A stretch of DNA of 64,000 nt from Chloroflexota bacterium (lineage in GTDB: Bacteria > Chloroflexota > Chloroflexia > QHBQ01). The number at the start of each line of letters is the position of its first letter. Position 1 is the stretch's first letter. This document shows positions 4,245 through 64,000 of this stretch, piece by piece. Location of the stretch: contig JANXYP010000016.1 of the NCBI GenBank assembly GCA_025355955.1, positions 73-64,072 of the forward strand. Reading direction: 5' to 3'. The position numbers and the translations under genes are program-made. Below the pieces are notes generated by a model, which was not told the DNA's origin, did no database searches, and worked only from the letters and a program-made list of their open reading frames with translations.

Positions 4245-4478
4245 AGTGATTGGTGATTTGTTGGGCGGGTTGGCGGCAAGGTGTCAAGTAAAATGTGCTG
4301 TAGTGATTATACCACAGCACTGATCGCTGCACATATCGTTAGGTAATTGTAGGGTAGCGTTGATAGCTTGTGATGTGTGGTGATGCGCTTCACGCGGTTG
4401 TATGCCATGCGCCCCTACGCCAATCTGGTACTCATATGCTAAATGAGGCTGCCAAATATAACCAGTCCGCGGCTATGA

Positions 4479-8766: not shown

Positions 8767-8806
8767 TGCGCTTCGCCAGGGGGGACGCGATTCGCCCGCC
8801 ACACCA

Positions 8807-9004
8807 GCGTTGGTAGTTGCGATGGGCGTTGATGCGCCGCATCAGGGCGGGCCACCGCCCGCCCCTACGCCAGGGTTGGTGGTTACGATAAACATTGATG
8901 CGCTTCACCTGGGCGGGCCACCGCCCGCTCCTACCCCAGGGTTGGTGGTTGCGATGAACGTTGGTGCGCTTCACCTGGGCGGGCCACCGCCCGCCCCTAC
9001 ACCA
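8807..9004. repeat. Tandem repeat, 66 bp x 3, each unit carrying the hairpin GGGCGGGCCACCGCCCGCCCCTAC
   Basis: Units start at about 8807, 8873 and 8939: GGTTGGTRGTTRCGAT...GATGCGCYKCAYCWGGGCGGGCCACCGCCCGCCCCTAC. They lie in the convergent gap between the membrane-protein stop and the nadK stop. Confidence 0.85.
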
Positions 9005-9870: not shown

Positions 9871-10036
9871 TAGATTGCAGATTACAGATTACAGATTACA
9901 GATTACAGATTGCAGATTGCAGATTATCGCTAGCCGAATCAGCCGCACTTGACCACGGTAATGCAATGGAAGATCACACAACCCCCATGCACAATGCGGT
10001 TTACAATCTGCAATCTGCAATCTAAAATCTGCAATT
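9871..10036. repeat. Inverted pair of heptamer arrays: (CAGATTR)x8 at 9871-9926 and (CAATCTG)x~4.5 at 10004-10036
   Basis: The arrays are reverse complements of each other and are separated by 77 nt. The tlyA stop (9939) lies in the loop, and the right array is translated as the tlyA C-terminus. Confidence 0.85.
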
Positions 10037-16571: not shown

Positions 16572-17387
16572 TTGGAGGAACTAATGGCGCTCCTGGAAGC
16601 AAGCAAGATACTGAAGCAGTTTGGCGGCCTCACCGCCGTCAACAAGGTGGATTTCGACATCCCCCAGAACTCAATCGTCAGCTTGATCGGGCCGAATGGC
16701 GCAGGTAAAACCACCCTGTTCAACATCATCACCGGCTTGTATAAGCCTACTGGCGGCAGCATCGTCTTCGACGGCATGAACGTGACCGGCGCACCACCCA
16801 ACCGCATCACCGAAATGGGCGTGGCCCGCACCTTCCAGAACATCCGCCTGTTCGCCAACATGACTGCGTTGGAGAACGTGCTGGTCGGGGCGCACAGCCG
16901 AATGAAGGCGGGTCTGTTCGGTGCCGTCTTCCGCACCCCCGCCACCCGCGCCGAGGAGGCAAGGATGGCTGACCGGGGCATAGAGCTACTTGAGTTCGTC
17001 GGGTTGGCGGGCAAGGAGGAGGAGTACGCCAAGAACCTCCCCTATGGCGACCAGCGTCGCCTGGAGATCGCCCGCGCTCTCGCTAGCGACCCCAAGCTGC
17101 TGCTGCTCGACGAGCCAACCGCCGGTATGAACCCCAACGAAACCCGCGAGATGACTGGCTTCATCGGCCGCCTGCGTAGCGAGCGCGGCCTCTCCATTCT
17201 GCTCATCGAACACGACATGAAGGTGGTAATGGGCATCTCCGATCGCGTGTCGGTGCTGGACTACGGCGTGAAGATTGCCGAAGGCACCCCCGCCGAGATA
17301 CGCAGCAACCCCCGTGTCATCGAGGCCTACCTGGGCAAGGGTGGCGGCAGCCCGATGAAGCAGGACGCGACCCAAGCTGAGTGCTGA
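16572..17387 (+). CDS. livG: Branched-chain amino-acid ABC transporter ATP-binding protein (LivG-type)
   Basis: Walker A GPNGAGKTT, signature YGDQRRLEIARAL and Walker B LLLLDEP. The TGA stop lies inside the (GCTGAGT) array. Confidence 0.9.
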   Translation: MEELMALLEASKILKQFGGLTAVNKVDFDIPQNSIVSLIGPNGAGKTTLFNIITGLYKPTGGSIVFDGMNVTGAPPNRITEMGVARTFQNIRLFANMTALENVLVGAHSRMKAGLFGAVFRTPATRAEEARMADRGIELLEFVGLAGKEEEYAKNLPYGDQRRLEIARALASDPKLLLLDEPTAGMNPNETREMTGFIGRLRSERGLSILLIEHDMKVVMGISDRVSVLDYGVKIAEGTPAEIRSNPRVIEAYLGKGGGSPMKQDATQAEC

Positions 17388-17562
17388 GTGCTGAGTGCTG
17401 AGTGCTGAGTGGCAAAAAGCCCCCAGCGGGGGTTGGGGGAGAACTCTCGAAGCGTTTGAGTGGCAAAAAGCCCCCAGCGGGGGTTTGGGGGGGAACTCTC
17501 GAGCGTTACCATGCTGATTGCAACGACCAACCCACAACTTTCAACTTTCAACTTTCAACTTC
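17376..17562. repeat. Composite repeat spacer: (GCTGAGT)x5, two ~50-bp terminator-like units, then (CAACTTT)x4
   Basis: (GCTGAGT)x5 occupies 17376-17410. GAGTGGCAAAAAGCCCCCAGCGGGGGTTKGGGG..GAACTCTCGA.GCGTT occurs at 17407-17456 and again at 17458-17507. (CAACTTT)x4 occupies 17535-17562. Confidence 0.85.
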
Positions 17563-19456: not shown

Positions 19457-19477
19457 GCTGAGTGCTGAGTGCTGAGT
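19457..19477. repeat. Heptamer array (GCTGAGT)x3
   Basis: It lies directly after the ldh stop. It is followed at about 19474-19530 by a third, diverged copy of the AAACCCCAGCGGGGTT terminator-like unit. Confidence 0.75.
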
Positions 19478-19578
19478 GATAAGCCTGGGCAAATAAACCC
19501 CAGCGGGGTTGAGGGAGAAGTGCCGACTTACTACCAGGTCGGTTGCTGGCAAATCCGCCGGAACGAAAGGAATTGGCG

Positions 19579-23436: not shown

Positions 23437-23491
23437 GAATAAGCTGGGCGATGATTAGATGCTTACTTTTACCAACTTGCGCCTTTATCTA

Positions 23492-23584
23492 ATACCAAAT
23501 AGCCGCAGCAATGCTATAGTTCAGTAGGGGCGAACCGTTGTTCGCCCTGGCTCAATCTATAGCGGCACCATCGCTAATTGGTAT
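23492..23584. repeat. ~93-bp palindromic MITE/REP-like element, copy 4
   Basis: ATACCAAATAGCCGCAGCAATGCTATAGTTCAGTAGGGGCGAACCGTTGTTCGCCCTGGCTCAATCTATAGCGGCACCATCGCTAATTGGTAT, in the convergent gap. Confidence 0.85.
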
Positions 23585-23607
23585 AACGTTTTTGGCACGT
23601 CACGTCA

Positions 23608-24741
23608 TCAGCGCGAAGAAATGAAGCTGCCCAGCCAGTTGCGGATATCATCGCCCAGTACGCCCAGCCAGTAGGTAAGGTTGTCGAGCGGCAGGGTGCG
23701 CCACAATTGGTCGCGCAGCAACAGGGCGCAGATGGCGGCGAAGCAGAACGATGCGCCCACCGGGACGTAGTCGTGCATCCGTTTGGCCCGCACCAAGACC
23801 AGCATCAGACCGATCAGTCCGGCAATTAGCGGGCCGAGCAGCAGCGGGCCAAGGATGGTGGGATACCCTAGCATCAGACCGAGCATAACCGCCAGTTCGA
23901 CATCGCCGAAGGCGAGCGCTTCCGATTCACCGCCATAGACTAGACGGGCGATGAAGTAGAAGAATAGTAGCGTGCCACCACCCACCGCTCCACCCAGCAG
24001 TGCGGAAGACAAACCCACCTCAGGGCTGAACAACGCGCCCAGCAGGGCTAGTGCCGCGCCCGCCAGCAACACGATGGTGTAGAGGTCGTGGTGCTGCCAA
24101 TCAATCGTTAGGGTAACAATCAGCACCAGGGTGAAGATTGAGTAAATAAAGAACAGAGGGCCGAGGCCATAATCAATCCAGGCAGCGGCAAGCGCAAGGC
24201 CAGTGCCAAGCTCGATTATCGGGAAGGAGAGCGGCAGCCGCTTGCCACAGTGGCGGCAACGCCCGCGTTGCCCCAGCCAGCCAAGCAGCGGCACGCTGTC
24301 GCCCCAACCCAGCGGTTCGCCACTGCGGGTGCAGCGCAGGGTTGAGTTTTGAGTTTTGAGTTTTGAGTTTTGAGTTATAGGGAACGGTGGCGCTTCTTCC
24401 TGTATCCCTACTGCCTGCTCCACCATTGCTGATTGCGATACTGCATCCGTAGGGGCGGGCGGTGGCCCGCCCTGCTCCACCACTGCTGGTTGGGGAATGG
24501 CATCGGTAGGGGCGGGTGGTGGCCCGCCCTGCTCCGCCCCTGCTGACTGTGGAATGGCATCCGTAAGTGCGGGCAGTGGCCCGCCCTGCTGCATAGGGGC
24601 GATTATTTGTTCGCCCTGCTTGGAGGGCGTATCAGGAACAGGCCACAGCCGGGGCAGGCGATAGATGATGACGTTGAGTAGCCCGCCCAACGCTACCCCG
24701 GCAATGAAAGCAAGCATGAACAATAGCGCACCCCATACCAA
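23608..24741 (-). CDS. pilD: Prepilin peptidase (A24 family) with repeat-derived insertions in the N-terminal loop
   Basis: 377 aa. The catalytic Asp contexts are IDWQHHDLY and FGDVELAVMLG. A Cys-rich segment (RGRCRHCGKRLP) and at least 6 TM segments are present. About 100 extra residues follow TM1. Confidence 0.85.
   Translation of the reverse strand: MVWGALLFMLAFIAGVALGGLLNVIIYRLPRLWPVPDTPSKQGEQIIAPMQQGGPLPALTDAIPQSAGAEQGGPPPAPTDAIPQPAVVEQGGPPPAPTDAVSQSAMVEQAVGIQEEAPPFPITQNSKLKTQNSTLRCTRSGEPLGWGDSVPLLGWLGQRGRCRHCGKRLPLSFPIIELGTGLALAAAWIDYGLGPLFFIYSIFTLVLIVTLTIDWQHHDLYTIVLLAGAALALLGALFSPEVGLSSALLGGAVGGGTLLFFYFIARLVYGGESEALAFGDVELAVMLGLMLGYPTILGPLLLGPLIAGLIGLMLVLVRAKRMHDYVPVGASFCFAAICALLLRDQLWRTLPLDNLTYWLGVLGDDIRNWLGSFISSR
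24341..24375. repeat. Heptamer array (TTTGAGT)x5 inside the pilD CDS
   Basis: GTTGAGT TTTGAGT x4, translated on the minus strand as TQNSKLKTQNS. Confidence 0.85.
24418..24588. repeat. 57-bp x 3 in-frame tandem repeat inside pilD carrying the GTAGGGGCGGGCGGTGGCCCGCCC hairpin
   Basis: The encoded 19-aa repeats are QGGPLPALTDAIPQSAGAE, QGGPPPAPTDAIPQPAVVE and QGGPPPAPTDAVSQSAMVE. The same hairpin motif occurs in the intergenic 66-bp repeats at 8807-9004. Confidence 0.85.
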
Positions 24742-24788: not shown

Positions 24789-24881
24789 ATACCAATTAGT
24801 GGTGATGCCACTATAGATTGAGGCAGGGCGAACAACGGTTCGCCCATACTGAACTATAGCAACGCCTCGGCTATTTGGTAT
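24789..24881. repeat. ~93-bp palindromic MITE/REP-like element, copy 5 (opposite orientation)
   Basis: ATACCAATTAGTGG...GGCAGGGCGAACAACGGTTCGCCCATACTGAACTATAGC...GGCTATTTGGTAT. Confidence 0.85.
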
Positions 24882-24884
24882 TAT

Positions 24885-24908
24885 AACTCAAAACTCAAAG
24901 CTCAAAAC
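24885..24908. repeat. Heptamer array (AACTCAA)x~3.5, complement of the array inside pilD
   Basis: AACTCAAAACTCAAAGCTCAAAAC lies between the aroE stop and the pilD 5' region. A degenerate array also occurs at 24744-24772. Confidence 0.7.
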
Positions 24909-24911
24909 CCA

Positions 24912-25904
24912 TTACTTCTTCGGGCGACGAACGGCGGCAAACATCACATCCAGCGGGGCAGGCTGGCCGGTCCATAGCTCGAAGGAGAGCGCGCCCTGGT
25001 AGACGAGCATCGTCAGTCCGTCAAAGCTGTGAGCGCCCCGTGCCTGCGCTTCGCGCTGTAGTCGAGTCGGTTGATACAGCAGATCGAAGACCACGCTACC
25101 AGGGAGGATCAGCTGGGGATCGATAGGGCAGTCGTCGTAGTGCATTGGGCTGAGGCCAATAGCCGTGGCGTTGATCAGTAGATCGTAGGAATGGCTAGCG
25201 AGATAATGAGGTAGGTCGGCGAACGCCAGCACGGTGATGTTCATCGATTGGCGAGCGAGTGCAGCAGCCGCCTGCAGCTCCTCGCTCAAGGGTAGGGTTG
25301 GATCGAAGCCGTTGCCCTGCTGCATGGGGTCGGCATCATTACCGTCCTCGTCGGGATAGGAGAGGGTAGGGGCGGGCAGTGGCGAGAGGTTGGCGAGGCG
25401 GGCGGCAAGGTACTCAGCGCGGTCGAGGGTGCGATTAGCGATTGCCAGGTCGCTAATCCCGGCGCGGGCCAGAGCGTGAGCGACGGCGCGGGCCGAACCG
25501 CCCGCCCCCAGTAGCAGCACACGACAGCCAGCCGGGTCAAAGCCCGCTTCTTCGCGCAACGCGCGCATAAAGCCGGGCGAATCAGTGTTGTAGCCAACCA
25601 GCGAACCCGCCTGGTTCACCACTACGTTGACCGCGCCGATACGGGCCGCCTCTGCGTCAATCTGGTCGAGCATCGGCAGCACATCCTCTTTGTATGGTGC
25701 GGTCAGGTTTGCGCCACGATAGTCAGGCCAGCGCAAGTCGGCAATACGGGCCTCTAGCTCGTCCGGTGGGGTCTCCCATAGCTCGTAATGGCCGGGAATG
25801 CCGGTGTGGTCGAAGGCAGCCTGCTGAATCAGGGGTGACAGGCTGTGGCTGACCGGGTAGCCGATCAGCCCGACGTGCTTGATCTCTTGCTTTATCTCGC
25901 TCAA
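24912..25904 (-). CDS. aroE: Shikimate dehydrogenase
   Basis: 330 aa with SHSLSPLIQQAAF and the NADP motif LLLGAGGSARAV. It carries a ~40-50-aa acidic/Pro-rich insertion. Confidence 0.88.
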   Translation of the reverse strand: MSEIKQEIKHVGLIGYPVSHSLSPLIQQAAFDHTGIPGHYELWETPPDELEARIADLRWPDYRGANLTAPYKEDVLPMLDQIDAEAARIGAVNVVVNQAGSLVGYNTDSPGFMRALREEAGFDPAGCRVLLLGAGGSARAVAHALARAGISDLAIANRTLDRAEYLAARLANLSPLPAPTLSYPDEDGNDADPMQQGNGFDPTLPLSEELQAAAALARQSMNITVLAFADLPHYLASHSYDLLINATAIGLSPMHYDDCPIDPQLILPGSVVFDLLYQPTRLQREAQARGAHSFDGLTMLVYQGALSFELWTGQPAPLDVMFAAVRRPKK

Positions 25905-30302: not shown

Positions 30303-30420
30303 AATGTTAAATGGTAAATTGTAAATGGTAAATGAAGCAGTAGGTTGGCTGGGTGAACCAGCTTCCATCCACTTCATTCAACCCATCATTCACTATTCAC
30401 CACTTAACATTCAACATTTC
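30303..30420. repeat. Inverted pair of degenerate heptamer arrays (AATGKTA-type at 30303-30337, complement at 30372-30420)
   Basis: AATGTTAAATGGTAAATTGTAAATGGTAAATGAAG faces CTTCATTCAACCCATCATTCACTATTCACCACTTAACATTCAACATTTC. The loop contains GCTGGGTGAACCAGC. Confidence 0.7.
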
Positions 30421-30601: not shown

Positions 30602-30612
30602 GGCTTATTGGA

Positions 30613-30686
30613 CCAGGGCGTGATTTATCACGCCTCTACATTGCGCGAGGCATATTGGAACGGGGCATGATTTATCACGTCCCTGG
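30613..30686. repeat. Two GC hairpin repeats in opposite orientation
   Basis: CCAGGGCGTGATTTATCACGCCTCTACA at 30613-30640 and CGGGGCATGATTTATCACGTCCCTGG at 30661-30686. Confidence 0.7.
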
Positions 30687-30716
30687 ATTGCGAGAGCGTG
30701 CAACAACGCTCACCCA

Positions 30717-30751
30717 CAATCTGCAATCTGCAATCTGCAATCTACAATTAA
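30717..30751. repeat. Heptamer array (CAATCTG)x5 just upstream of the rplJ RBS
   Basis: CAATCTG x3, then CAATCTA and CAATTAA. This is the same heptamer as at 10004-10036. Confidence 0.8.
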
Positions 30752-30773: not shown

Positions 30774-31607
30774 TTGCCAACAGCTGAGAAGCAACAAACG
30801 ATTAAAGAACTGTCCGCGCTGATGAAGAAGAGCGCAATGATGGTGCTGACCGACTATCGCGGCATGACGGTGGCCGACATCAGTGACCTACGCCGCCAGA
30901 TGCGGGCCAAGGGCGTAGAGTATCACATCACCAAGAACACCCTGACCGTGCTGGCCGCCGAAGATGCGGGTATAGACATGACCAGCGAATTGCGCGACCT
31001 GCTCAACGGGCCAACCGCAATTGCCTTCTTGACCGACGACATCGCGGCGGGCAGCAAGATGATCAACGATTATCTGCGTACCGCACGGGTGATGAAGGTC
31101 AAAGCCGCATTGCTCGAAGGAAGGGTGATGAAGGCGGAGTCGCTGGCCGACATTGCCAAGCTGCCAGGGCGGCAGCAACTGCTAGCCTCGATACTCGGAC
31201 TCGTGCAAGCGCCACTCACCAGCCTGGCCTCCAGGCTCAACCAGATCATCAGCGGCCTGGCGACTGCCCTAAAGCAGCACGCCGATAACCAGAGTAGCGG
31301 AGTTAACGCCGAGACGGCTACGACTGCGGAAGCAGCCCCTGCCAGCGAAGCAGCGCCCGCCAGCGAAGCAGCCTCTACTGAGGTGGCTCCTGCTAACGTA
31401 GCCAATCCTAGCGAAGCAGCCTCTACCGAGGCGACTCCTGCTAGCGAAACCACACCTAGCGAAGCAGCCTCTACCGAAGCAGCGCCTGCTAGCGAAGCAA
31501 TGCCTACTAGCGAAGCAGCGCCTGCCAGCGAGGCAACTCCTGACGAGGCGGCCCCAACTAGCGAAGCAGCGCCTGCTAGCGAGGCTACGCCTGGCGAGGC
31601 AGCTTAA
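30774..31607 (+). CDS. rplJ: 50S ribosomal protein L10 with a ~107-aa low-complexity C-terminal extension
   Basis: The TTG start follows GGGAGGTG. The canonical L10 part covers residues 1-170 (VLTDYRGMTVADISDLRRQMR). It is followed by (EAAPASEA)-like repeats up to residue 277. Confidence 0.9.
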   Translation: MPTAEKQQTIKELSALMKKSAMMVLTDYRGMTVADISDLRRQMRAKGVEYHITKNTLTVLAAEDAGIDMTSELRDLLNGPTAIAFLTDDIAAGSKMINDYLRTARVMKVKAALLEGRVMKAESLADIAKLPGRQQLLASILGLVQAPLTSLASRLNQIISGLATALKQHADNQSSGVNAETATTAEAAPASEAAPASEAASTEVAPANVANPSEAASTEATPASETTPSEAASTEAAPASEAMPTSEAAPASEATPDEAAPTSEAAPASEATPGEAA

Positions 31608-34880: not shown

Positions 34881-34984
34881 AAGTTGAAAGTTGAAAGTTG
34901 AAAGTTACAAGAGTAAAAAAGCATTCATGTGCTTCCATATTTTACGCCTTCACTTTCAACTTTCAACTTTTCACTTTCAACTCA
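34881..34984. repeat. Inverted pair of heptamer arrays: (AAGTTGA)x~4 at 34881-34908 and (TTCAACT-type)x~5 at 34948-34984
   Basis: The arms are reverse complements with a 39-nt AT-rich loop. The pair lies between the metE stop and the next start. Confidence 0.85.
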
Positions 34985-38223: not shown

Positions 38224-41061
38224 CTAAACCTCGCCCAGGAAGTGCGCGTTGGGGGCAATGTCCATGGCCCAGTCGGAGGTGTCGGCGCGGTCGCGGGCTG
38301 CGCCCTGGGCATGGTAATAGCGATAATAGGCGGCTGCGCCGATCATGGCGGCATTATCAGTGCAGAGCGCCATTGGGGGGTAGATCAGCGGCACTTTGAG
38401 CCGCTCACCCATCATCTCGCGCAGCAGGCGATTGGCGGCCACGCCACCTGCTAGCACCACCATCCGTGCGCCATACTGCTCGGCTGCTGCTGCTGTCTTT
38501 TCCACCAGCACCTCGACCACCGCCAGTTGGAAGGCGGCGGCAATCAAAGCCACCGGCGCATGACCTTTCTTGTCAGAGCCAGCACCAGCACCAACACTGC
38601 CGCGTACCCCCGGTGAGCGGGGCGCGTCTGCACCTAGCGAACGGTTGCGGCGGGAACGGTCATCATCGCCCGGCTCGTCCTCATCGTCGGCGGCGCTACC
38701 GACGCGGCTGCGAGGCGTATCGTCTTCCTCATTGTCAATATAGTCGCGCTCGTCGCGGTCATCGTCATCCGCGCTGCTGCCTTTCGGCACGGGTATTATC
38801 TCGCGCTGGGCAAGGGGTGCGCTGCGCTGAGGCAATTGGCCGGGGCGGGTATAGGTGCCGCGCTGCGACTGCGAGGGCGGCAGAGGGCGGGGCCGATTCA
38901 ACGGTGGTGGGGCGCTGGATGTTGCCGACGGTTGCTGGGCTGGCGACTGAACAGGCCGCTGCTGGGCGGGCGGTTGCTGGGTGGTACGCGACTGGGCGGG
39001 CGGTTGCTGGGTCGGTCGCTGCGATGCGGGCGGTTGCTGGGTCGGTCGCTGCGGTGCGGGCTGGTTGGGCCGTTGCTGCGGCGGTTGCTGGGTGGGGCGT
39101 TGTGGTGCCGGTTCGCTGCCCAGCACCGTGCTGCGGGGATAGATGTTGCCGCCACTCTGCGGTGCTGGTGGTTGTACCACTGGCTGGCCGGGCCGTTGCT
39201 GGGCTGGTGGATTAGGCTGAGGAGTAGGCGGTTGTGGCTGTGAACGCTGGTCAGTGGTGGGCGGATGCATAGCTCGACCCTGCGGCGATAGTGTGCGCGG
39301 CAGCGATTGTTCGTCCTCGTCCTCGTCCTCATCGTCTGCCTGTGGCGCGGTGCGGGGGTCGGGCGTAGGTACAGTGCGGAGTGGGCGGCGCTCCAGGCCG
39401 GGGCCAGTTACTGCCCCCGGTGGCGCAGGCTGCGGTGAACTGGCCGCAGTGGTGGTGGGCTGGTGCGGTGGATTAGCAGTGGCTGCTGGGGTAGCGATCT
39501 CCACCCCATCCTCATCGTCGAACATCGAATAAATAGCGCGGGGGCGCGGCGCGGCCTGGCGCAAGGGGCGACGCTCCAACGCGGGACTAATGGGGGTGGC
39601 GCTTACTGGCGGTTGCACATTGCCATTTTCGTTCTCGTCCCCCTCGTCGTCGTCATCATCACCCTCTTCATCATCATCAGCGGTTTCGTTGGCATCGCGT
39701 ACGAACAGGCTGGCGAGGCGGTCACGCGGCGGTTGTGGGCCGAGGCGGAAGCTCGGCTCCGGCGCGACTTCATCCCCATCATCGTCGGCTTCGACCGCTG
39801 GCGCAGGTGGCAGCGTTGTGGCGCGAGGTGGATTGGCCGGTCGCACTGGCTGGGCAGGCGCGATGCTGGGAGCGGGTGGTACGATGGTGCGGGCGGGAGG
39901 AGTTGGTGGATCGGCCGGTTGCGTTGCAAGTTCTGCGGGTCGAGTCAGGCGGGCAGGCGGTTGGAAGCCACGCGCTTGCGGTTGGCGCGTAGGTTGGTCG
40001 GCGGGGGCAGGCATCGCCAGCGGTTCGCTCACCATTGCAGTAGGCGACTGGCCGGGGCGCACACTGTTGCTATCGCTGGTGGCCTCGCGCCCGGCGGCAT
40101 CGCTACGCTGCTGCGCGGCCTCGACCTCGGCGAATGGGCGCGGCTTATCTACCACTGGCAACCCGCCATACTCGTCAATCTTACGCATCACCGCCGTCTT
40201 CAGCCCGCTGAAGCTGAAGTCGTAGGTGCCGCGCAGCCAGGCGCGAGGCAGGTCAATCTTGCGCGGGTCGACGGGTTCGGCATCGACCAGCTTCTGAATC
40301 GCCGGGCCGCCAGGGTAGCCGAGGCCGAGGATGCGTCCCACCTTGTCGAACGCCTCACCCGCCGCATCATCAATCGTCTTGCCCAGCAGTTCGTACAGCC
40401 CATGCCCGCGCATCAGGATCAGTTCGGTATGCCCGCCCGACACCACCAGAGCAACAATGGGGAACTGCGGTTCTGGTGGTATAGCGACTCCCTCCCCGAT
40501 CTTAGGGGAGGGTTGGGGAGGGGGCGCGGGTTTTGGCACAGGCTCACCCACTGGACGATAGACCGGCGCGGATTGCTCGTAAGCGGCGCGGTACTGGCGG
40601 CTGGACGGCTCCTCGCTATTTATGTCCGACTCCTCAGCGTCGGCGCTGGTGGGCAATTCGGCAACGACCGGCTTGGGCTTGGCAGCGCTATTGGGGATGA
40701 GCCAGTTAGCGTAGATATGGCCCTCGAGGTGGTTGACTGGCAGCAGCGGCTTGCCCAGGGCAAACGCCAGCCCTTTCGCCACGTTGACCCCCACCAGCAA
40801 CGCGCCCGCCAGCCCTGGTCCGTTAGTCACGGCGATGGCATCAATATCGCGCCAGGTGAGGCTCGCTTCCTTCAGCGCAGCTTCCAGGGTTGGCACGATG
40901 TAGAGGATGTGCTGGCGGCTGGCAAGCTCAGGCACGACTCCACCCCAACGCTTGTGCAGCTCGATCTGCGAAGCGACCACGTTGGTGAGGATGCGGCGGC
41001 CATCCTGGATGATTGCCGCCGAGGTTTCGTCACATGAAGTTTCAAAGGCGAGGATGTTCAT
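38224..41061 (-). CDS. tsaD: tRNA N6-adenosine threonylcarbamoyltransferase TsaD interrupted by two large low-complexity insertions (945 aa)
   Basis: The N-terminal part reads [50 protein letters not shown]. The C-terminal part reads [13 protein letters not shown]...CTDNAAMIG. It is one continuous ORF. The inserts cover about residues 124-198 and 300-833. Confidence 0.88.
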
Positions 41062-45476: not shown

Positions 45477-45504
45477 CCAGGGCGGGCCATCGCCCGCCCC
45501 TACG
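45477..45504. repeat. Solo GC hairpin repeat CCAGGGCGGGCCATCGCCCGCCCCTACG
   Basis: The same motif occurs in the 66-bp tandem units and in the pilD in-frame repeats. Confidence 0.75.
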
Positions 45505-48536: not shown

Positions 48537-49222
48537 TGTTGGCCTCGTTGCTCCTCAATCATCTTGAGGAAGTAGGCGTGGAAGCGGGTGTCCGCAGTAA
48601 GCTCAGGGTGGAAGGCACTGACCAGCAGGTTGCGTTGCCGTGCCGCCACAATCGGCGCATCCCCCTGGGCCAGGGTTGCCAGCACCTCCACGTCCCTGCC
48701 CACGCTCTCGATGTACGGGGCGCGGATGAAGATCATAGGGAAGGGCGGCTCACCCAGCGTGGGGATGAGCGCGGATGTCTCGAAACTATCAATTGCCCTG
48801 CCAAAGGCGTTGCGCCGCACCTTCACGTCCATTACCCCAAACAGGCTTTGCGGCTGGCCCTCGATCAGTGCGGCAGTGTCGCCAATGTCGCGGGAGAGCA
48901 TGATCATACCAGCGCAGGTGCCGTAAATGGGCAGCCCCTGCTGCGCCAGCGCAGCAATCGGCCCCTTCAGCCCATAAAGCTCGGCCAACTTGCCAATCGC
49001 GGTGCTTTCGCCGCCGGGGATGATCAACCCATCAATCCCCGCCAGTTGCAGCGGCTGGCGCACCTCGACTGTCGCCACCCCCAGCCGCTGCAGCATTGCA
49101 ATATGCTCGGCAAAGTCGCCTTGCAGGGCCAGCACGCCGACCCGGAGTGCTGAGTGCTGAGTGCTGAGTGCTGAGTCTTGCGGTTCAGCTATCTTCTGCT
49201 GCCTGATCTGCTGATTGGTCAT
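48533..49222 (-). CDS. pdxT: Pyridoxal 5'-phosphate synthase glutaminase subunit PdxT
   Basis: VGVLALQGDFAEH, the catalytic GTCAG and the C-terminal FHPE. The ATG at 49222 follows GGAG. The ~25-aa N-terminal extension translates the heptamer array (DSALSTQHSAL). Confidence 0.85.
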   Translation of the reverse strand: MTNQQIRQQKIAEPQDSALSTQHSALRVGVLALQGDFAEHIAMLQRLGVATVEVRQPLQLAGIDGLIIPGGESTAIGKLAELYGLKGPIAALAQQGLPIYGTCAGMIMLSRDIGDTAALIEGQPQSLFGVMDVKVRRNAFGRAIDSFETSALIPTLGEPPFPMIFIRAPYIESVGRDVEVLATLAQGDAPIVAARQRNLLVSAFHPELTADTRFHAYFLKMIEEQRGQH

Positions 49223-49294
49223 CTTAGTCTCCAGGTCTGCATAACCGAGTGCCGAGTTCCAAGCTAATCCACTCAGCACTCAGCACTCAGCACT
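49145..49294. repeat. Inverted pair of heptamer arrays: (GAGTGCT)x~4.7 at 49145-49177 and (ACTCAGC)x~3.4 at 49271-49294
   Basis: The arms are reverse complements and bracket the pdxS-pdxT junction, including the pdxT RBS and start. The left arm lies inside the pdxT coding region. Confidence 0.85.
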
Positions 49295-54104: not shown

Positions 54105-56120
54105 ATGATTGACCTAACCCTATCAGCCGCAGAACTGAGCAAACAAGGCATCGCCGCCGCCCGCGCCGGACGCAACGACGAGGCCCGCGAGTACCTGGTC
54201 GCCGCCGTCGAAGCCAACGAGCGCAACGAACCGGCATGGCTCTGGCTGGGCGGGGTAATGACCGAACTAGAAGATAAGATTGTCTGCCTGGAAAACGCGC
54301 TTACCCTCAACCCCGCCAACGAACCCGCCGCCCGCAAGCTGCAGCAATTGCAGCTCAAGCGCGAGATGCAGAAACCCGAGGCAACCCCCCTCCCCAGCCC
54401 TCCCCTAACTACGGGGAGGGAGTCTGCCTCCCTCCCCCGCCCTCCCCCAACTACGGGGAGGGAGTCTGCCTCCCTTCCCAGCCCATCCCTAACTACGGTG
54501 AGGGAGTCAACCCCGCCTGCGTCAGCAACCCAGGATTTGTATCTGAACAGCTCGGCGGCAACACAGGGCTTGCCAGCGCCACCGCTGGGTGCATTGCCCT
54601 GGGATCACCTGGTTATTCCCTTCAGTAGTGGCGACACCAGTTCGCTTCGCTCACCGGGCGACCCTAATCCAGGCGCGACCCTATCCCGCCCACCACTTAG
54701 CGGGAACGAGTACGACTCCGCTGCACCCTTCACTGGCTATCGCAGTGGCGGCTACGATGATACGGGCAACGATGGAGACTGGCTGCAGCCCGGCACCCAG
54801 CATATGCCTACCAATCCCGACTATAGCCCTGGCCGGCGGGCTGATCTGCCTGGGCCGGACGATCAGCCCGGCGGCTACCCTGAGCAACGCGACGCTAGCG
54901 AGTGGCAGCAACCCGATCGCGGTTATCACGGCGATACCAGCGCAAGCGCATGGGTCAACCCATTTGCCTCCGTTGCGGAAACCAATGGCTATAGTCCTTA
55001 CAACTCTAGCCAGGATGCGCCTGCTCCCCTCCACGATACGCAGCGCTACTCAGGTGCGGCCTTGAACTCCGACTTCAACCCCCTGACCGAGCAACTCGAA
55101 CACGATGAGCGCTTCGACTGCCCTTACTGCGGCTGGCAAACTCGGGTAGAAGATCAGCGTTGCCCCAACTGCAGCGGTGATCTCTACATTTATGCCAGCG
55201 CCAACGAAAAGCGTTCTAGCGCCCTCGTGCGCGTGGTTCTGCTGTGGGTGGTTCGCGCCCTTAGGTCGGCGGTTGGCCTGGGTCTGGCGATCTTTACGGC
55301 AGAGGTAGTGAAGCAGCAGATGCAAAAGGTGAGTGTCAGCCTGGATACTTCGACGATCGCTCATTATGGCCTAACCCCTGGGGAGATCAATGCGGTCACG
55401 CAGCAACGGGAAACCTCCATCGCTATCTACTATGGCGTAGTCATCGGCATCGCCATCATCATGGCGATTGGCTCGTGGTCGCGGATGCGGATATTCTATC
55501 GGATTAACATCGCAGTAATTATACTGACCGGGTTCGCTTCATTCCTCAGCTATGTGTTTGACCCGGTTAAAAGCCCTACCAACCTGATTATTGATGTGGT
55601 AATTTTGTTTGCCCAGTTTCTGTCAATCGTACGCGCCGAGCCTGACTTCATCAATCAGAAGCAGCGCATCGTGGAGCCGAACTATCACGGTGAGGTCAGC
55701 GCCCTCGGCTTCTTCAACCTGGGAACGCAGTTTCAAAAGGCGGGCTACACCGCACTGGCAGCCAAAGCGTGGCAGCGTTCGGTGTCAATGGGTCCTAGTG
55801 ATGGTCGCACTCGCGCCGCCCTGGCGATGGCCTACACTCGGATGAAGCGCTACGATTTGGCGGTGGAGCAGCTCAATGAAGCGTTGAAGATAGACCCGCA
55901 TGATACCCGTGCTATGAATCTGATGGCAATCTCACAAATGCGTGCTGGCAACTACGATGAGGCCCGTAGCTATGTCGCCGCCGCGCTCGAAGCCAAGCCT
56001 AATGATCCCGATACCCTTGATAACCAGAAGCAAATCGAGGATGAAATCAAGAAGGCGGCCAGCAAGCCGCCGACCAAGCCAGCCGTGCCGAAGCAGAACA
56101 CCAAGAAAGCAGTTGGCTAA
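54105..56120 (+). CDS. TPR-repeat membrane protein with a zinc ribbon and repeat-derived low-complexity region
   Basis: 671 aa. It has an N-terminal TPR, the zinc ribbon CPYCGWQTRVEDQRCPNCSG, ~4 TM segments and C-terminal TPRs. A tandem 14-aa repeat region is also present. Confidence 0.7.
   Translation: MIDLTLSAAELSKQGIAAARAGRNDEAREYLVAAVEANERNEPAWLWLGGVMTELEDKIVCLENALTLNPANEPAARKLQQLQLKREMQKPEATPLPSPPLTTGRESASLPRPPPTTGRESASLPSPSLTTVRESTPPASATQDLYLNSSAATQGLPAPPLGALPWDHLVIPFSSGDTSSLRSPGDPNPGATLSRPPLSGNEYDSAAPFTGYRSGGYDDTGNDGDWLQPGTQHMPTNPDYSPGRRADLPGPDDQPGGYPEQRDASEWQQPDRGYHGDTSASAWVNPFASVAETNGYSPYNSSQDAPAPLHDTQRYSGAALNSDFNPLTEQLEHDERFDCPYCGWQTRVEDQRCPNCSGDLYIYASANEKRSSALVRVVLLWVVRALRSAVGLGLAIFTAEVVKQQMQKVSVSLDTSTIAHYGLTPGEINAVTQQRETSIAIYYGVVIGIAIIMAIGSWSRMRIFYRINIAVIILTGFASFLSYVFDPVKSPTNLIIDVVILFAQFLSIVRAEPDFINQKQRIVEPNYHGEVSALGFFNLGTQFQKAGYTALAAKAWQRSVSMGPSDGRTRAALAMAYTRMKRYDLAVEQLNEALKIDPHDTRAMNLMAISQMRAGNYDEARSYVAAALEAKPNDPDTLDNQKQIEDEIKKAASKPPTKPAVPKQNTKKAVG
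54392..54512. repeat. 42-bp x ~3 in-frame tandem repeat (CCTCCCC..GGGGAGGG hairpin family) inside the TPR gene
   Basis: AACTACGGGGAGGGAGTCTGCCTCCC recurs at 54407, 54449 and 54491. The encoded peptide is PPLTTGRESASLPR/PPPTTGRESASLPS/PSLTTVRES. Confidence 0.8.
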
Positions 56121-56699: not shown

Positions 56700-56860
56700 A
56701 ATGAAACCCCGCCCCTTTTTGTGAGCACTGGAGTCTAAAAACCCCTTCTCCCCTTTTGTGAGCGTTAGAGTCTAAAACCCCTCCCCCTTGCGGGAGAGGC
56801 TGGGTGAGGGGTAATCAGGCATCGCACGAAGGCTACTCGAAACTACGGAGGCTACTCGGC

Positions 56861-61369: not shown

Positions 61370-64000
61370 ATGCGTACTCGTAAACTGGCAAGCGGGCTGG
61401 GCCTGTTGGTGGCTGCTGCGCTGGCCCTGGCACCGCTGGTGGCGCTTGCCTACGACTGGCCGCAGTTCGATGGCAACGAGCAGCACTCTGGCAATAACAC
61501 CCAGGAATCATTGATCAACATCGGCAACGTTGGCGCGTTGCAACAGTTGTTTCGCGTTTCCTTGCCCGATACCGCCGATAGTTCGCCCGTCTACTTCAGC
61601 AGCGTGATCACCGGCACCGGCAGTGTGGATACCGTGTTCGTCACCACCAAAGCTGGCAGGCTGGTGGCGTTGAACGCCCATACCGGCGCGACCATCTGGA
61701 TGCGGCAGGCGGCAACTGGGCCACAGTATACCACATCCTCACCGACGCTCGATCCTAACCACACTGATCCCGCCCACCAGTTCGTCTATAGCTACGGACT
61801 GGACGGCTACGTTCACAAGTACAACGCAGGCGATGGCAGCGAGACGATCGGCGCGGGCTGGCCGGAGACTGCCACGCTCAAGCCCAGCGTGGAGAAGGGT
61901 TCAGCGGCGCTGGCAACCGCCATCTACACCGATGGCACGCCCTACCTGTACGTCGCCAACGGCGGCTACCCCGGCGATGCGGGCGACTACCAGGGCCACG
62001 TCACCACTATCAACCTGAACACTGGCGCACAGAATGTCTTCAACGCGGCGTGCAGCAACCTGACTGTGCACTTCGTGTTGAATGGCACGCCAGGCGTGAA
62101 CGACTGCCGCCAACACCAAAACGCGGTGTGGGCGCGTCCTGGAGTGGTTTACGACCCCGATACCAACAAGATCTACGCTGCCACTGGCAACGGTAACTTC
62201 AATGGCAACACCGGCGGTTACAACTGGGGCGATAGCGTAATGGAACTCAACCCCAACGGCACCGGCGCGAATGGCAAGCCGCTCGACTCCTACACCCCCG
62301 CCGATTTTCAGCACCTACAAAATGTTGATGCTGATCTGGGCAGCACCAACCCGGTGATTCTTTCCATGCCCATCACCAGCACTTACCAGCACGTCGCCGC
62401 TCAGGGTGGTAAGGATGGCATCATCCGTCTGATCAACCTCGACGCGATGAGCGGCGCGGGCGGACCGGGGCAGTTGGGCAACGAGATCCAGAACCTCGAC
62501 ATCCTCAACGGCAATGAGATGCTGCCCTCGCCTGCCACCTGGATCAGCCCTAGCGACCAGAGCCGCTGGCTATTCGTCAGCACCATAAGCTATGGCCTGG
62601 ACGGGATGCAGATCGTCTACACTGGCACGGTGCCTGGGTTGCGCGGGCGTTGGCATATCAGCTCCAACAACCCCTCATCGCCAATCGTTGCCAACGGGGT
62701 GCTGTTCACCGCTCACATTGGGGCGATTAGCGCCTACAATCCCCTCACCGGCGTATCGCTGTGGAGTGGGTCTATCGGCAACATCCATTGGGAAAGCCCG
62801 GCGGTGGTAAACGGCATCGTCTATATTACCGATGAGAGTAGCAGGATTACCGCCTACGCTCTGCCCAGCAGCGGGACACCAACGCCGACCAATACAGCGA
62901 CTAACACGCCGACGCGCACCAACACGCCGTCATTCACGCCGACCAGCAGCAACACGCCGCTGCCGCCAACCAGTACAGCGACGCGCACGCCCCTGCCGCC
63001 TACCAGTACCTCGACGAGTACGCCGTTGCCACCCACGAATACGGAGACGAGTACGCCGCTGCCACCCACGAATACGCCCACAGATACACCAACGAACACG
63101 CCACTGCCGCCCACCGACACGCCAACCCTGACTGACACGCCAGTGCCAACCGCTACACCGACGAACACGCCTGTGCCGCCAACCGACACACCAATCCAGA
63201 CCGACACACCCACTGCGACCAGCACGCCCGTGCCACCGACTGCCACACCAGCGCCACCGACTAGCACCCCACCGCCGAGCAACACCCCCGGCGGACCAAC
63301 CGACACCCCTGGCGGTCCAACCAACACTCCACCCCCGACCAACACCCCACTGCCGACCAATACGCCCGGCGGGCCAACCAACTCACCTGTGCCACCGACA
63401 AATACGCCACTGCCAGCGACCAACACGCCCGGTGGGCCGACCAATACACCTGCGCCGCCCACGGTGACACCAACCGATTGCGCCAACCCCTTCGTGGACA
63501 TCACGGGCAATATCTTCTACATCGCAATCCACTACCTGAATTGTCGTGGGGTGGTTAACGGCACCAACGCAACCCACTACTCGCCTGCTGGCACCTCCAC
63601 AAGAGGGCAGTTCGCCAAAGTTGTCGTCCTCGGCTTTGGCTTGCCGTTCTACACCCCCAGCGGCGCACAGGACTTCACCGATGTGCCACCTGGCTACTTC
63701 GCCTACTTGTTCATCGAGAGCGGCTTCCACGCCGGTATCCTTAGCGGCTTCGACTCGGCTAGCTGCATCGCGGCGGGCGCGACCCCGCCTTGCTACCTGC
63801 CCAACCGCCCGATCACCAGGGGGCAACTGACCAAACTGGTGGTGCTGGCCGCTCACTATCTGCTGATCACACCGACCACTCCCAGCTTCATTGATGTGCC
63901 GTCGAGCAACGTTTTCTACGCATTCATCGAAACCGCCCACGCACACAATGTGGTCAATGGCTACCCCGACCGCACCTTCCGCCCAAATAATAGCATCCGC
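61370..64000 (+). CDS. Secreted PQQ-like beta-propeller protein with a Pro/Thr linker and C-terminal SLH domains (3' end beyond the window)
   Basis: Absent from the ORF track because it runs off the right edge. The ATG at 61370 follows AAGAAAGGGG. The signal peptide is MRTRKLASGLGLLVAAALALAPLVALA, followed by YDWPQFDGNEQHSGNN and propeller blades. A TP-rich linker spans about 62870-63470. SLH-like repeats follow (FVDITGNIFYIAIHYL, FTDVPPGYFAYLFIES, FIDVPSSNVFYAFIET). Confidence 0.8.
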   Translation, partial: MRTRKLASGLGLLVAAALALAPLVALAYDWPQFDGNEQHSGNNTQESLINIGNVGALQQLFRVSLPDTADSSPVYFSSVITGTGSVDTVFVTTKAGRLVALNAHTGATIWMRQAATGPQYTTSSPTLDPNHTDPAHQFVYSYGLDGYVHKYNAGDGSETIGAGWPETATLKPSVEKGSAALATAIYTDGTPYLYVANGGYPGDAGDYQGHVTTINLNTGAQNVFNAACSNLTVHFVLNGTPGVNDCRQHQNAVWARPGVVYDPDTNKIYAATGNGNFNGNTGGYNWGDSVMELNPNGTGANGKPLDSYTPADFQHLQNVDADLGSTNPVILSMPITSTYQHVAAQGGKDGIIRLINLDAMSGAGGPGQLGNEIQNLDILNGNEMLPSPATWISPSDQSRWLFVSTISYGLDGMQIVYTGTVPGLRGRWHISSNNPSSPIVANGVLFTAHIGAISAYNPLTGVSLWSGSIGNIHWESPAVVNGIVYITDESSRITAYALPSSGTPTPTNTATNTPTRTNTPSFTPTSSNTPLPPTSTATRTPLPPTSTSTSTPLPPTNTETSTPLPPTNTPTDTPTNTPLPPTDTPTLTDTPVPTATPTNTPVPPTDTPIQTDTPTATSTPVPPTATPAPPTSTPPPSNTPGGPTDTPGGPTNTPPPTNTPLPTNTPGGPTNSPVPPTNTPLPATNTPGGPTNTPAPPTVTPTDCANPFVDITGNIFYIAIHYLNCRGVVNGTNATHYSPAGTSTRGQFAKVVVLGFGLPFYTPSGAQDFTDVPPGYFAYLFIESGFHAGILSGFDSASCIAAGATPPCYLPNRPITRGQLTKLVVLAAHYLLITPTTPSFIDVPSSNVFYAFIETAHAHNVVNGYPDRTFRPNNSIR

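What the first reader, a model, noticed from the sequence alone, without database searches (positions are those of the whole stretch)
24418..24588. GC hairpin repeat present both as an intergenic 66-bp tandem array and as an in-frame 57-bp x3 insertion in pilD (RPE-like behaviour)
The motif (C)CAGGGCGGGCCACCGCCCGCCCCTAC occurs three times in the 66-bp tandem units at 8807-9004 (intergenic). It occurs once at 45477-45504 and in a degenerate solo unit near 4352-4424. It also occurs three times inside pilD with a 57-bp period (19 codons), encoding QGGPPPAPTDAIPQ.AVVE repeats between TM1 and the Cys-rich segment. Both periods (66 and 57) are multiples of 3. The ~100-aa pilD insert, together with the adjacent heptamer-encoded stretch, sits in the cytoplasmic N-terminal loop. 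The first Cys pair of the usual zinc motif appears degenerate there (RCTRSGEPL where I expected CxxC). In-frame palindromic-element insertions in ORFs are established for Rickettsia palindromic elements, and this looks like an analogous case.
Basis: partly seen in the sequence, partly recalled or inferred. Interest (0 to 1): 0.6.

Follow-up and report, generated by a model that had tools for sequence, protein, structure and literature searches.

The report
REP hairpin repeats translated inside pilD
A small GC-rich hairpin repeat that litters the spaces between genes in this uncultured Chloroflexia bacterium also sits, in frame and in several copies, inside the prepilin peptidase gene. There it is translated as a floppy linker, which is a clear example of a phenomenon already described for GTAG-type REP elements and Rickettsia palindromic elements.

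Summary
The 26-nt hairpin CAGGGCGGGCCACCGCCCGCCCCTAC occurs 7 times in the window (0 expected). Three copies lie in an intergenic 66-bp array, one is solo, and three lie in a 57-bp in-frame array inside pilD.

Its reverse complement is GTAG followed by a GC palindrome. That is the architecture of GTAG-tagged REP elements, which are closer relatives than Rickettsia RPEs. About 20 other REP-like hairpins of several stem variants in the window are all intergenic.

pilD holds a fourth, different-variant hairpin and a 5x heptamer array. Together they form a 105-aa linker between TM1 and the Cys-rich domain, which AlphaFold2 predicts as disordered.

Distant PilDs lack the linker. Five family-level orthologues all keep an open linker of 64-113 aa with quite different content. 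Two close relatives carry other mixes of REP variants in the same frame.

Near-perfect hairpins despite 33-43% synonymous divergence imply ongoing insertion or conversion. A GT39 glycosyltransferase in sister genomes carries the same hairpin-plus-heptamer module in frame.

The 57- and 66-bp units share only the hairpin. The lost Cys is clade-wide and unrelated to the insert. No RAYT transposase was found.

Verdict: a new member of a known kind (intragenic REPs, Di Nocera 2013).

The parts
23608..24741 (-). pilD (prepilin peptidase, A24 family), 377 aa, intact ORF
   Evidence: It matches PF06750 (2e-17) and PF01478 (2e-8). The invariant Asp residues D214 and D280 and the Cys residues C137, C162 and C165 are present. 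The AlphaFold2 core has pLDDT above 90.
24334..24645 (-). Repeat-built linker (aa 33-136) between TM1 and the Cys-rich cytoplasmic domain
   Evidence: AlphaFold2 predicts coil with pLDDT 45-57. The region is absent from PilDs at 40% identity or less. It is open in frame in six orthologues at 64-113 aa.
24593..24618 (-). Unit 0: REP-like hairpin of the second variant (CAGGGCGAACAAATAATCGCCCCTAT), encoding QGEQIIAPM
   Evidence: Found. RNA folding gives -10.6 kcal/mol, z -4.6. The 33-bp block (unit 0 plus part of unit 1) is missing from L001.
24563..24588 (-). Unit 1 hairpin (3 mismatches to consensus)
   Evidence: Found. Folding gives -13.5 kcal/mol.
24506..24531 (-). Unit 2 hairpin (1 mismatch)
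   Evidence: Found. Folding gives -15.7 kcal/mol. It is orthologous to L001 unit B.
24449..24474 (-). Unit 3 hairpin (26/26 match to the dispersed consensus)
   Evidence: Found. Folding gives -18.9 kcal/mol, z -4.2. The orthologous position in L001 holds the other stem variant.
24414..24590 (-). 57-bp x 3.1 tandem array (26-nt hairpin plus 31-nt spacer)
   Evidence: Reported by TRF. Hairpins differ 10% between units and spacers 25% (p=0.017).
24342..24376 (-). Heptamer array, AACTCAA x5 on the coding strand, encoding TQNSKLKTQNS
   Evidence: Reported by TRF. Arrays of about 4-5 units with other unit sequences occupy the same position in L001, L060, L061 and L002.
24790..24880 (+). About 100-nt composite palindromic element, with hairpin variant 2 at 24824-24849, between aroE and the pilD start
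   Evidence: Based on the alignment of 10 copies and a consensus fold of -48 kcal/mol. Metagenome word depth here is about 2800 against about 23 for unique sequence.
24885..24908 (+). Heptamer array AACTCAA x3.4, 4 nt from the aroE stop
23490..23590 (-). Second copy of the composite palindromic element (hairpin 23524-23549), 59 nt downstream of the pilD stop
   Evidence: Word depth is about 23800.
8793..9004 (+). Intergenic 66-bp x 3.2 array (26-nt hairpin plus 40-nt spacer) between convergent genes
   Evidence: The same 40-nt spacer family occurs in sister-genome arrays L005, L009, L011 and L039.
45478..45503 (+). Solo intergenic hairpin (1 mismatch)
4352..4424 (+). Degenerate solo unit of the 66-nt type with another hairpin variant
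   Evidence: Compare CGGGGCGTATGCCATGCGCCCCTAC in L062 and L009.

Best explanation
The hairpin is a REP-type element: a GTAG tetranucleotide plus a GC-rich 8-bp stem and a 4-nt loop. It belongs to a multi-variant family that shares the ends CAGGGCG...CGCCCCTAC and is dispersed through the intergenic DNA of an uncultured Chloroflexia lineage.

In pilD, several copies have accumulated in frame in a structurally permissive, disordered cytoplasmic linker between TM1 and the Cys-rich N-domain, next to an in-frame heptamer array. They are translated as a Pro/Gly/Ala-rich spacer (QGGPPPAPT[D/E]A...). The peptidase core, with its two catalytic Asp residues, is unaffected.

Shown: the sequence identity to intergenic copies, the in-frame status, the absence of the linker from distant orthologues, the turnover of its content among relatives, and the predicted disorder.

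Inferred:
- The array grew by local tandem duplication of hairpin-plus-spacer units. Only multiples of 3 survive: 57 bp here, 51-57 bp in L001, 33 bp in L060, and 60 bp in the GT39 gene.
- The hairpin segments are kept close to the genomic consensus by continuing REP insertion, replacement or short-patch gene conversion, presumably by the same machinery that spreads the intergenic copies (a RAYT-type HUH transposase or replication template switching).
- The protein-level effect is neutral or nearly so.
For: - Architecture: GTAG plus a palindrome, with stable folds of -18.9 to -10.6 kcal/mol and z of -3 to -4.6.
- Dispersal: 7 copies against 0 expected. About 20 further hairpins of variant stems in the window are all intergenic, mostly within 3-150 nt of gene ends. 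There are at least 16 loci in the sister MAG. Word depth is 100-1000x that of unique DNA.
- Insert status: PilDs at 40% identity or less go straight from TM1 to the Cys motif.
- Translation: all six orthologue linkers are open and in frame. The chance product is about 8e-8, before requiring lengths divisible by 3. TM1 is conserved.
- Turnover: the window has variant 2 once and variant 1 three times. L001 has one degenerate unit, one variant 1 and one variant 2. L060 has four variant-2 hairpins, two of them 26/26 to consensus. All are read as CAG GGC G...
- Divergence: four-fold sites differ by 33% (window vs L001) and 43% (window vs L060). A neutral relic would carry about 9-11 changes per 26 nt, yet units with 0-1 changes exist.
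- Constraint on the hairpin: hairpins are more conserved than spacers within both arrays.
- Disorder: pLDDT is 45-57 over aa 33-135 and above 90 elsewhere.
- Generality: a GT39 glycosyltransferase loop carries 1 (L005) or 2 (L062, 60-bp period) in-frame hairpins plus the AACTCAA heptamer. Relatives at 49% identity or less lack them.
- Precedent: intragenic GTAG and CGTC REPs, including clusters encoding 43-82 aa, are published (PMC3733652).
Against: - No RAYT-like gene was found in the window or in about 150 kb of related Chloroflexia loci, so the mobilising enzyme is unidentified.
- The arrays are head-to-tail, which PMC3733652 describes as rare for REPs.
- The constant orientation and frame in all copies fits in-situ duplication or conversion better than repeated independent transposition.
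- Translation of the linker is inferred from ORF conservation, not observed.
- The higher conservation of hairpin than spacer could also reflect selection on the mRNA or on the PPPAPT peptide.
Confidence: 0.7

Rival explanations
1. The hairpins inside pilD are maintained because they act as nucleic-acid elements in the mRNA or DNA. For example, stable mRNA stem-loops about 40-100 codons after the start could slow ribosomes once TM1 has emerged, helping membrane targeting. Alternatively they could be REP-type sites for mRNA stabilisation or protein binding.
For: - Hairpins are more conserved than spacers.
- Perfect consensus copies persist despite 33-43% synonymous divergence.
- Several decayed copies keep their stems through C-to-T changes that give G-U pairs in the sense RNA (L001 unit B).
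- Both host genes (PilD, GT39) are polytopic membrane proteins, and the module sits next to a TM helix.
Against: - Only two genes are known.
- Orthologues L002, L061 and L003 lack intact hairpins yet keep the linker.
- C-to-T bias on the coding strand also arises mutationally.
- The number, spacing and variant of the hairpins are not conserved.
Confidence: 0.17
2. The repeats form a contingency (phase- or length-variable) locus. Slippage in the 7-bp array would switch PilD on and off by frameshift, or changes in the 57-bp copy number would tune linker length.
For: - A perfect 5x 7-bp array lies inside the ORF.
- Unit copy number differs between relatives, for example 1 vs 2 units in GT39.
- Linker length differs between relatives, at 64-113 aa.
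Against: - The heptamer array has about the same length (about 4-5 units) and keeps the frame in the window, L001, L060 and L061.
- No indel or copy-number variant was seen, but only Logan contigs were available and they break at the repeats.
- Five copies is short for efficient slippage.
Confidence: 0.07
3. The insert is an ancestral protein linker conserved at amino-acid level, or the join is an assembly artefact or pseudogene. On this view the resemblance to intergenic repeats is incidental.
For: A linker of some kind exists at this site in all six family members. Short-read assemblies can mis-join at repeats.
Against: - Hairpins match intergenic copies at 26/26 and 25/26.
- Linker sequences are unrelated among orthologues with 67-78% identical cores.
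- The same architecture appears in six independent assemblies with aroE-pilD synteny.
- An independent contig spans TM1 to unit 3.
- The ORF is open throughout.
Confidence: 0.04

Closest known systems
GTAG-tagged REP elements (Di Nocera et al. 2013, PMC3733652; Nunvar et al. 2010, PMC2817692)
   Same: - 26 nt long, with a terminal unpaired GTAG, a GC-rich 8-bp stem and a short loop.
- Sub-families with alternative complementary stem residues.
- High copy number, mostly intergenic and close to the 3' ends of genes.
- Clustered in arrays together with flanking DNA.
- Occasional in-frame intragenic copies and clusters; the family is also reported in Chloroflexi (T. roseum).
   Different: - The arrays are head-to-tail direct repeats, not head-to-head or tail-to-tail dimers or BIMEs.
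- No RAYT has been found yet.
- The intragenic cluster (4 hairpins, about 85 aa, or 105 aa with the heptamers) is larger than the 43-82 aa reported.
- It is coupled to an in-frame heptamer array.
- The stem variant differs at an orthologous coding position between sister genomes.
Rickettsia palindromic elements (RPE)
   Same: Dispersed palindromic repeats that occur both between genes and in frame inside ORFs, tolerated in surface loops or linkers. PMC3733652 equates RPE-4 and RPE-6 with CGTC-type REPs.
   Different: RPE-1 is 100-150 bp, Rickettsia-specific and usually a single insertion. RPE-4 and RPE-6 carry the CGTC tag, not GTAG. There is no sequence relationship. Here the insert is a tandem array of 26-nt hairpins.
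Cyanobacterial STRR heptanucleotide repeats (from my own knowledge, Mazel et al. 1990; no Chloroflexi report found)
   Same: Tandem 7-bp units in many sequence variants, placed at gene boundaries throughout the genome.
   Different: The phylum is different. Here arrays also lie in frame at conserved positions inside two genes, and the unit sequence changes in concert between genomes.
CRISPR array (superficial resemblance)
   Same: The intergenic array has a 26-nt palindromic repeat alternating with 40-nt spacers.
   Different: The spacers are about 79% identical to each other and belong to a conserved family shared across loci and genomes. There are only 3 units, and no cas genes were noticed among the few window ORFs annotated.

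Membership tests
GTAG-type REP | Short (20-40 bp) imperfect palindrome able to form a stem-loop | tested here: met
   The element is 26 nt with an 8-bp stem and a 4-nt loop. It folds at -18.9 kcal/mol, z -4.2, with 0 of 200 shuffles as stable.
GTAG-type REP | Unpaired GTAG tetranucleotide at one end | tested here: met
   The reverse complement reads GTAG-GGGCGGGC-GGTG-GCCCGCCC-TG. CTAC/GTAG is kept in nearly all variants listed.
GTAG-type REP | High copy number, dispersed in the genome | tested here: met
   There are 7 variant-1 copies and at least 13 hairpins of other variants in 64 kb. Word depth is about 100x (variant 1) and about 1000x (variant-2 element) that of unique DNA. No complete genome is available for a count.
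GTAG-type REP | Predominantly extragenic, near the 3' ends of unidirectional or convergent genes | tested here: met
   Using my own gene map, every palindromic hairpin outside pilD is intergenic. The 66-bp array lies between convergent genes.
GTAG-type REP | Sub-families with compensatory stem variation | tested here: met
   The inner stem varies in a complementary way between variants: GGC/GCC, AAC/GTT, AGTG../..CC, GGGAT/ATCCC and others, all between the constant ends CAGGGCG and CGCCCCTAC.
GTAG-type REP | Cognate RAYT (REP-associated tyrosine transposase) gene, usually flanked by REPs | not testable with these tools
   tblastn with a RAYT-like query found nothing in the window or in the Chloroflexia loci. 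Only a fraction of each draft genome is in hand. An unrelated Gaiellales MAG has a RAYT-like ORF (NF047646, E 3e-16, below the cut-off) that carries the hairpin core in frame.
Rickettsia palindromic elements | Membership of an RPE sequence family (RPE-1 to RPE-10) in Rickettsia genomes | tested here: not met
   The host is a Chloroflexia MAG (record titles). The element is 26 nt and GTAG-tagged, whereas RPE-4 and RPE-6 are CGTC-tagged and RPE-1 is longer (PMC3733652). The behaviour is analogous, but the element is not a member.
Rickettsia palindromic elements | In-frame insertion in ORFs without disrupting the host protein | tested here: met
   The ORF is open, the catalytic residues are kept and the insert is predicted to be disordered.
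CRISPR | Unique spacers between identical repeats | tested here: not met
   The spacers are 79% identical to one another and recur at other loci and in other genomes.
Prepilin peptidase PilD (A24) | A24 N-domain plus peptidase domain with two catalytic Asp residues | tested here: met
   PF06750 and PF01478 both match. D214 and D280 are invariant.
Prepilin peptidase PilD (A24) | Four-Cys (CxxC...CxxC) motif of the N-domain | tested here: not met
   The motif reads C137-T-R-S140 ... C162-R-H-C165. The Ser at 140 is shared by the whole clade, including members without the insert.

The most novel reading that the evidence does not exclude
The TM1-proximal linker of PilD, and a loop of a GT39 glycosyltransferase, may be conserved in-frame landing pads. 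In them, REP hairpins and heptamer arrays would be actively and repeatedly replaced by the genome's repeat-spreading machinery. Two observations point this way: the stem variant differs at an orthologous position, and heptamer unit sequences change in concert between genomes. On this reading the hairpins are retained because they act in the mRNA, for example as a translational pause coupled to membrane insertion, and not as passive passengers.
Probability: 0.18. Interest if true: 0.65.

Novelty: new member of a known kind. Interest (0 to 1): 0.4.

Why it matters
This case shows, with orthologue series, that REP-type hairpins can colonise and keep turning over inside an intact housekeeping membrane-protein gene in a little-studied phylum. 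They build over 100 residues of disordered linker from intergenic-type repeat DNA.

It is useful for annotation. Gene callers truncated this gene in two relatives at the repeats (P0002 and P0005 start after or inside the linker).

It also offers a natural system for asking how REPs are homogenised and whether intragenic hairpins affect translation. It does not reveal a new kind of element.

Tried and rejected
- Protein search with the 100-aa linker peptide: 1200 candidates, none scored, presumably because of composition correction.
- Metagenome scan for close PilD relatives: only one distant hit.
- Look-ups of P0001 and P0111: not on record.
- Homology between the 31-nt pilD spacer and the 40-nt intergenic spacer, tested in both orientations against shuffles. 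Only one of five units was marginal (2/300), so this was rejected.
- aroE 25349-25383 (GTAGGGGCGGGCAGTGGC, 17/18 to the half hairpin). There is no second arm. The PAP-rich loop is conserved at protein level in L001 and L002 with different DNA, so it is not a convincing REP.
- CRISPR reading of the 66-bp array: rejected because the spacers are alike.
- RAYT search by tblastn: negative.
- Rfam: only two tRNAs in the window, and no family covers the hairpins or the 100-nt palindrome.
- The repeat finder for inverted repeats with seed 9 missed the 8-bp stems.
- Population copy-number variation: only Logan unitigs were available and they break at the repeats, so this was uninformative. Apparent variants at 24414-24442 are unit-2-like sequence laid on unit 3.
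- Long PilDs from other phyla have their extra length elsewhere, not at this junction.
Full report
**What is there**

The 26-nt sequence CAGGGCGGGCCACCGCCCGCCCCTAC occurs seven times in the window with up to 3 mismatches, against none in 100 dinucleotide shuffles.
- Three copies form a 66-bp x 3.2 tandem array at 8793-9004.
- One copy is solo at 45478.
- Three copies form a 57-bp x 3.1 array at 24414-24590.

The 57-bp array lies on the coding strand of ORF 23608-24741 (-). This ORF is a prepilin peptidase, matching PF06750 and PF01478. The array is read as three 19-residue units, QGGP(P/L)PA(P/L)TDA....

My gene map places the 66-bp array between convergent genes (DUF5656 protein and NAD kinase). 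It places the solo copy between two co-oriented genes.

**What the hairpin is**

Read on the other strand it is GTAG-GGGCGGGC-GGTG-GCCCGCCC-TG: a GTAG tetranucleotide followed by an 8-bp GC stem and a 4-nt loop. As RNA it folds at -18.9 kcal/mol, z -4.2.

It is one variant of a larger family that shares the ends CAGGGCG...CGCCCCTAC but has different, internally complementary, stem and loop sequences. Examples are AACAACGGTT, AGTGCAACC, TATGCCATG, GGGATAAATCC and GGGCAGCCACC. The 8-mer GCCCCTAC alone occurs 19 times against 3.5 expected.

This is the definition of GTAG-tagged REPs given by Di Nocera et al. 2013 (PMC3733652). That paper also records GTAG REPs in Chloroflexi and sub-families with complementary stem changes. 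It further records clusters reiterated in tandem with flanking DNA, and in-frame intragenic REPs. It equates RPE-4 and RPE-6 of Rickettsia conorii with CGTC-type REPs, and it reports clusters encoding 43-82 aa.

- At least 16 loci are in one Chloroflexia MAG, La1_metabat2.069 (GCA_038230695.1). This is the sister of the window's genome.
- There the hairpin again sits in 66-nt composite tandem units with the same 40-nt spacer family.
- The same stem with other loops is found in Acidobacteriota, Thermoleophilia, Gaiellales and Gemmatimonadota, often in REP-like arrays or as terminator-like hairpins.

Logan contigs of four sediment metagenomes hold the window. Summed word depth over the hairpin is about 100x that of the unique flanks. 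Over the second-variant element it is about 1000x.

Outside pilD, every palindromic hairpin in the window is intergenic.

**Anatomy of the pilD insert**

The Pfam N-domain match covers residues 13-189 for 82 profile columns. On the coding strand the linker (aa 33-136, 24334-24645) contains, in order:
- a variant-2-like hairpin (24593-24618, QGEQIIAPM);
- three variant-1 units of 57 bp, each a 26-nt hairpin plus a 31-nt spacer;
- a 42-nt tail;
- a perfect AACTCAA x5 heptamer array (24342-24376, TQNSKLKTQNS), directly before LRCTRSGE.

The 31-nt spacer is not significantly similar to the 40-nt intergenic spacer in either orientation. The two arrays therefore share only the hairpin, and the fact that 66 is divisible by 3 has no bearing.

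AlphaFold2, run with a 50-sequence alignment, gives coil with pLDDT 45-57 for residues 33-135. It gives pLDDT above 90 for TM1 and the remainder. The invariant Asp residues D214 and D280 are present.

The first Cys pair is C-T-R-S. This is true of the whole clade, including P0007 and P0008, which have no insert. It is therefore unrelated to the repeats.

**Orthologues**

PilDs at 40% identity or less pass directly from TM1 to the Cys motif. Long PilDs of other phyla carry their extra residues elsewhere.

Five family-level orthologues, all next to aroE or crcB as in the window, have a linker at exactly this site. The ORF is open in each of them.

| Locus | Linker (aa) | PilD core identity to window (%) |
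|---|---|---|
| L001 | 80 | 91 |
| L060 | 70 | 77 |
| L061 | 64 | 76 |
| L002 | 69 | 78 |
| L003 | 113 | 67 |

The chance that six such stretches are all open is about 1e-7, even before requiring lengths divisible by three. Together with the conserved TM1, this argues that the linker is translated.

The content of the linker differs between orthologues.
- L001 has a degenerate unit, a variant-1 hairpin and a variant-2-like hairpin, followed by ACCCAGC x5.
- L060 has four variant-2 hairpins, two of them 26/26 to the consensus, at 33-bp spacing, followed by ACCTCAA x4.
- L061 and L002 have no intact hairpin but do have a heptamer array (ACTCAGC x5 and TCACTYC respectively).
- L003 has its own 60-bp repeat.

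All recognisable hairpins are in the same orientation and frame (CAG GGC G..).

In the window-L001 alignment, window unit 3 is a perfect variant-1 hairpin. It is flanked by identical sequence, but it aligns to a variant-2-like hairpin in L001. The window also has an extra 33-bp block and an extra 36-bp block.

Four-fold degenerate sites of the core differ by 33% (window vs L001) and 43% (window vs L060). A 26-nt neutral relic would therefore have about 9-11 changes, not 0-1.

Within both the pilD array and the intergenic array, the hairpin segments are more alike than the spacers. The figures are 10% vs 25% (p=0.017) for pilD and 5% vs 21% (p=0.002) for the intergenic array.

I infer three things:
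- The site became a permissive linker early in this family.
- The arrays grow by local duplication.
- The hairpin segments are continually refreshed from, or replaced by, the dispersed family.

**A second gene**

In the sister MAG, a GT39/PMT glycosyltransferase (L005 738-2921) carries a hairpin plus heptamer module in the loop before its third TM helix. The hairpin is CACGGCGGGATTTATCCCGCCCCTAC (HGGIYPAPT), followed by a spacer and AACTCAA heptamers (TQNSKLKTQNSKL).
- An 86%-identical orthologue (L062) has two such units with a 60-bp period.
- A 66%-identical orthologue (L063) has only the heptamers.
- Orthologues at 49% identity or less, which still cover the whole N-terminus, have neither.

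The behaviour is therefore not peculiar to pilD.

**Mechanism and its limits**

The best-supported reading is passive. REP-type hairpins, and heptamer arrays, are tolerated in frame in disordered loops of membrane proteins. They are amplified by tandem duplication and homogenised with the dispersed family.

The enzyme is not identified. No RAYT-like ORF was found in the window or in the related loci, and the genomes are fragmentary.

One RAYT-like ORF was seen in an unrelated Gaiellales MAG. It matches NF047646 at E 3e-16, below the curated cut-off, and carries the hairpin core in frame after its HUH motif.

A functional role of the stems in the mRNA, or phase variation through the 7-bp array, cannot be excluded. 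The available reads (contigs only) do not resolve copy-number variation.

**Comparison and verdict**

As to membership, the element fits GTAG-type REPs on every testable criterion, and the RAYT criterion could not be tested.

In-frame REPs and REP clusters are already published, so this is a new member of a known kind. Its noteworthy particulars are:
- head-to-tail arrays;
- an unusually long REP-built linker;
- coupling to in-frame heptamer arrays;
- variant replacement at an orthologous coding position;
- recurrence in a second gene.

Interest is moderate.

Noticed in passing
window 1781, 3467, 6249, 23524, 24824, 26063, 27404, 32474, 57612 (hairpin starts; each element spans about 100 nt): An approximately 100-nt composite palindromic element: TTATACCAATTAG..GCTATAGATTGRG-[CAGGGCGAACAACGGTTCGCCCCTAC]-..CTATAGC..CTAATTGGTAT. 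The outer arms vary between copies. The consensus folds at -48 kcal/mol. Metagenome word depth is about 1000x that of unique DNA. It flanks pilD on both sides and has no Rfam match.
   Followed up: partly
window 9872-9926, 10004-10035, 17376-17411, 17535-17561, 19457-19478, 24885-24908, 30303-30334, 30717-30748, 34881-34906, 34952-34982, 49145-49176, 49270-49294: Perfect or near-perfect 7-bp tandem arrays (3-8 units, about a dozen different unit sequences) sit 2-26 nt from gene starts and stops all over the window. They resemble cyanobacterial STRRs, and I found no report of them for Chloroflexi. Some lie inside ORF ends, where start-codon calls are uncertain.
   Followed up: partly
window 24342-24376; L001 3720-3765; L060 1737-1770; L061 333-370; L005, L062, L063 GT39 loops: In-frame heptamer arrays keep position and length (about 4-5 units) in orthologues of two genes, but the unit sequence differs between genomes in all copies at once: ACTCAAA, ACCCAGC, ACCTCAA, ACTCAGC. 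This means concerted change or replacement without loss of frame, and it is unexplained.
   Followed up: partly
L005 738-2921, L062 4280-6496, L063 1100-3184: A GT39/PMT glycosyltransferase of sister genomes carries 1 or 2 in-frame REP hairpins (60-bp period) plus heptamers in the loop before TM3.
   Followed up: yes
L060 1380-1800 (GCA_036798625.1): The aroE stop and the aroE-pilD spacer are missing. The aroE ORF is called at 430 aa and runs on through the pilD 5' end. It reads the same REP hairpins in another frame (..GRTTVRPY..), while pilD starts at an ATG inside it.
   Followed up: partly
L049 1972-2433 (-) (Gaiellales MAG): A RAYT-like ORF (NF047646, E 3e-16, below the cut-off; no Pfam hit) has the hairpin GGGCGGGCCAAGGCCCGCCCCTAC in frame (SRAGQGPPLQ) directly after its HUH motif.
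   Followed up: partly
L007, L015, L022, L047 and other Acidobacteriota loci: The same stem with a CAAGG loop lies downstream of a conserved gene. On the other strand it is followed by a T-run, so it looks like an intrinsic terminator. The GTAGGGGC-headed hairpin is widespread across soil phyla.
   Followed up: no
window 25349-25383 (aroE): GTAGGGGCGGGCAGTGGC (17/18 match to half of the hairpin) encodes PLPAPT at the start of an approximately 40-aa aroE insertion. The insertion is conserved at protein level in L001 and L002. There is no second arm, so this is probably not a REP.
   Followed up: yes
P0002 (L001) and P0005 (L060) gene calls: Automated gene calls for pilD in two relatives start inside or after the repeat linker and so lose TM1. 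The repeats mislead gene finders.
   Followed up: yes
window 17406-17507, 30602-30696, 54388-54508, 56704-56789: Further intergenic tandem repeats with periods of 51, 47, 42 and 37 bp contain hairpin-like cores, for example GCCCCCAGCGGGGGT, CAGGGCATGATTTATCACGCCCCTAC and CCCTCCCC...GGGGAGGG.
   Followed up: no
window 31329-31593, 38957-39118, 62954-63444: Tandem repeats with periods divisible by 3 (18/33/48, 30 and 21/33 bp) lie inside long ORFs. They are probably low-complexity protein repeats.
   Followed up: no
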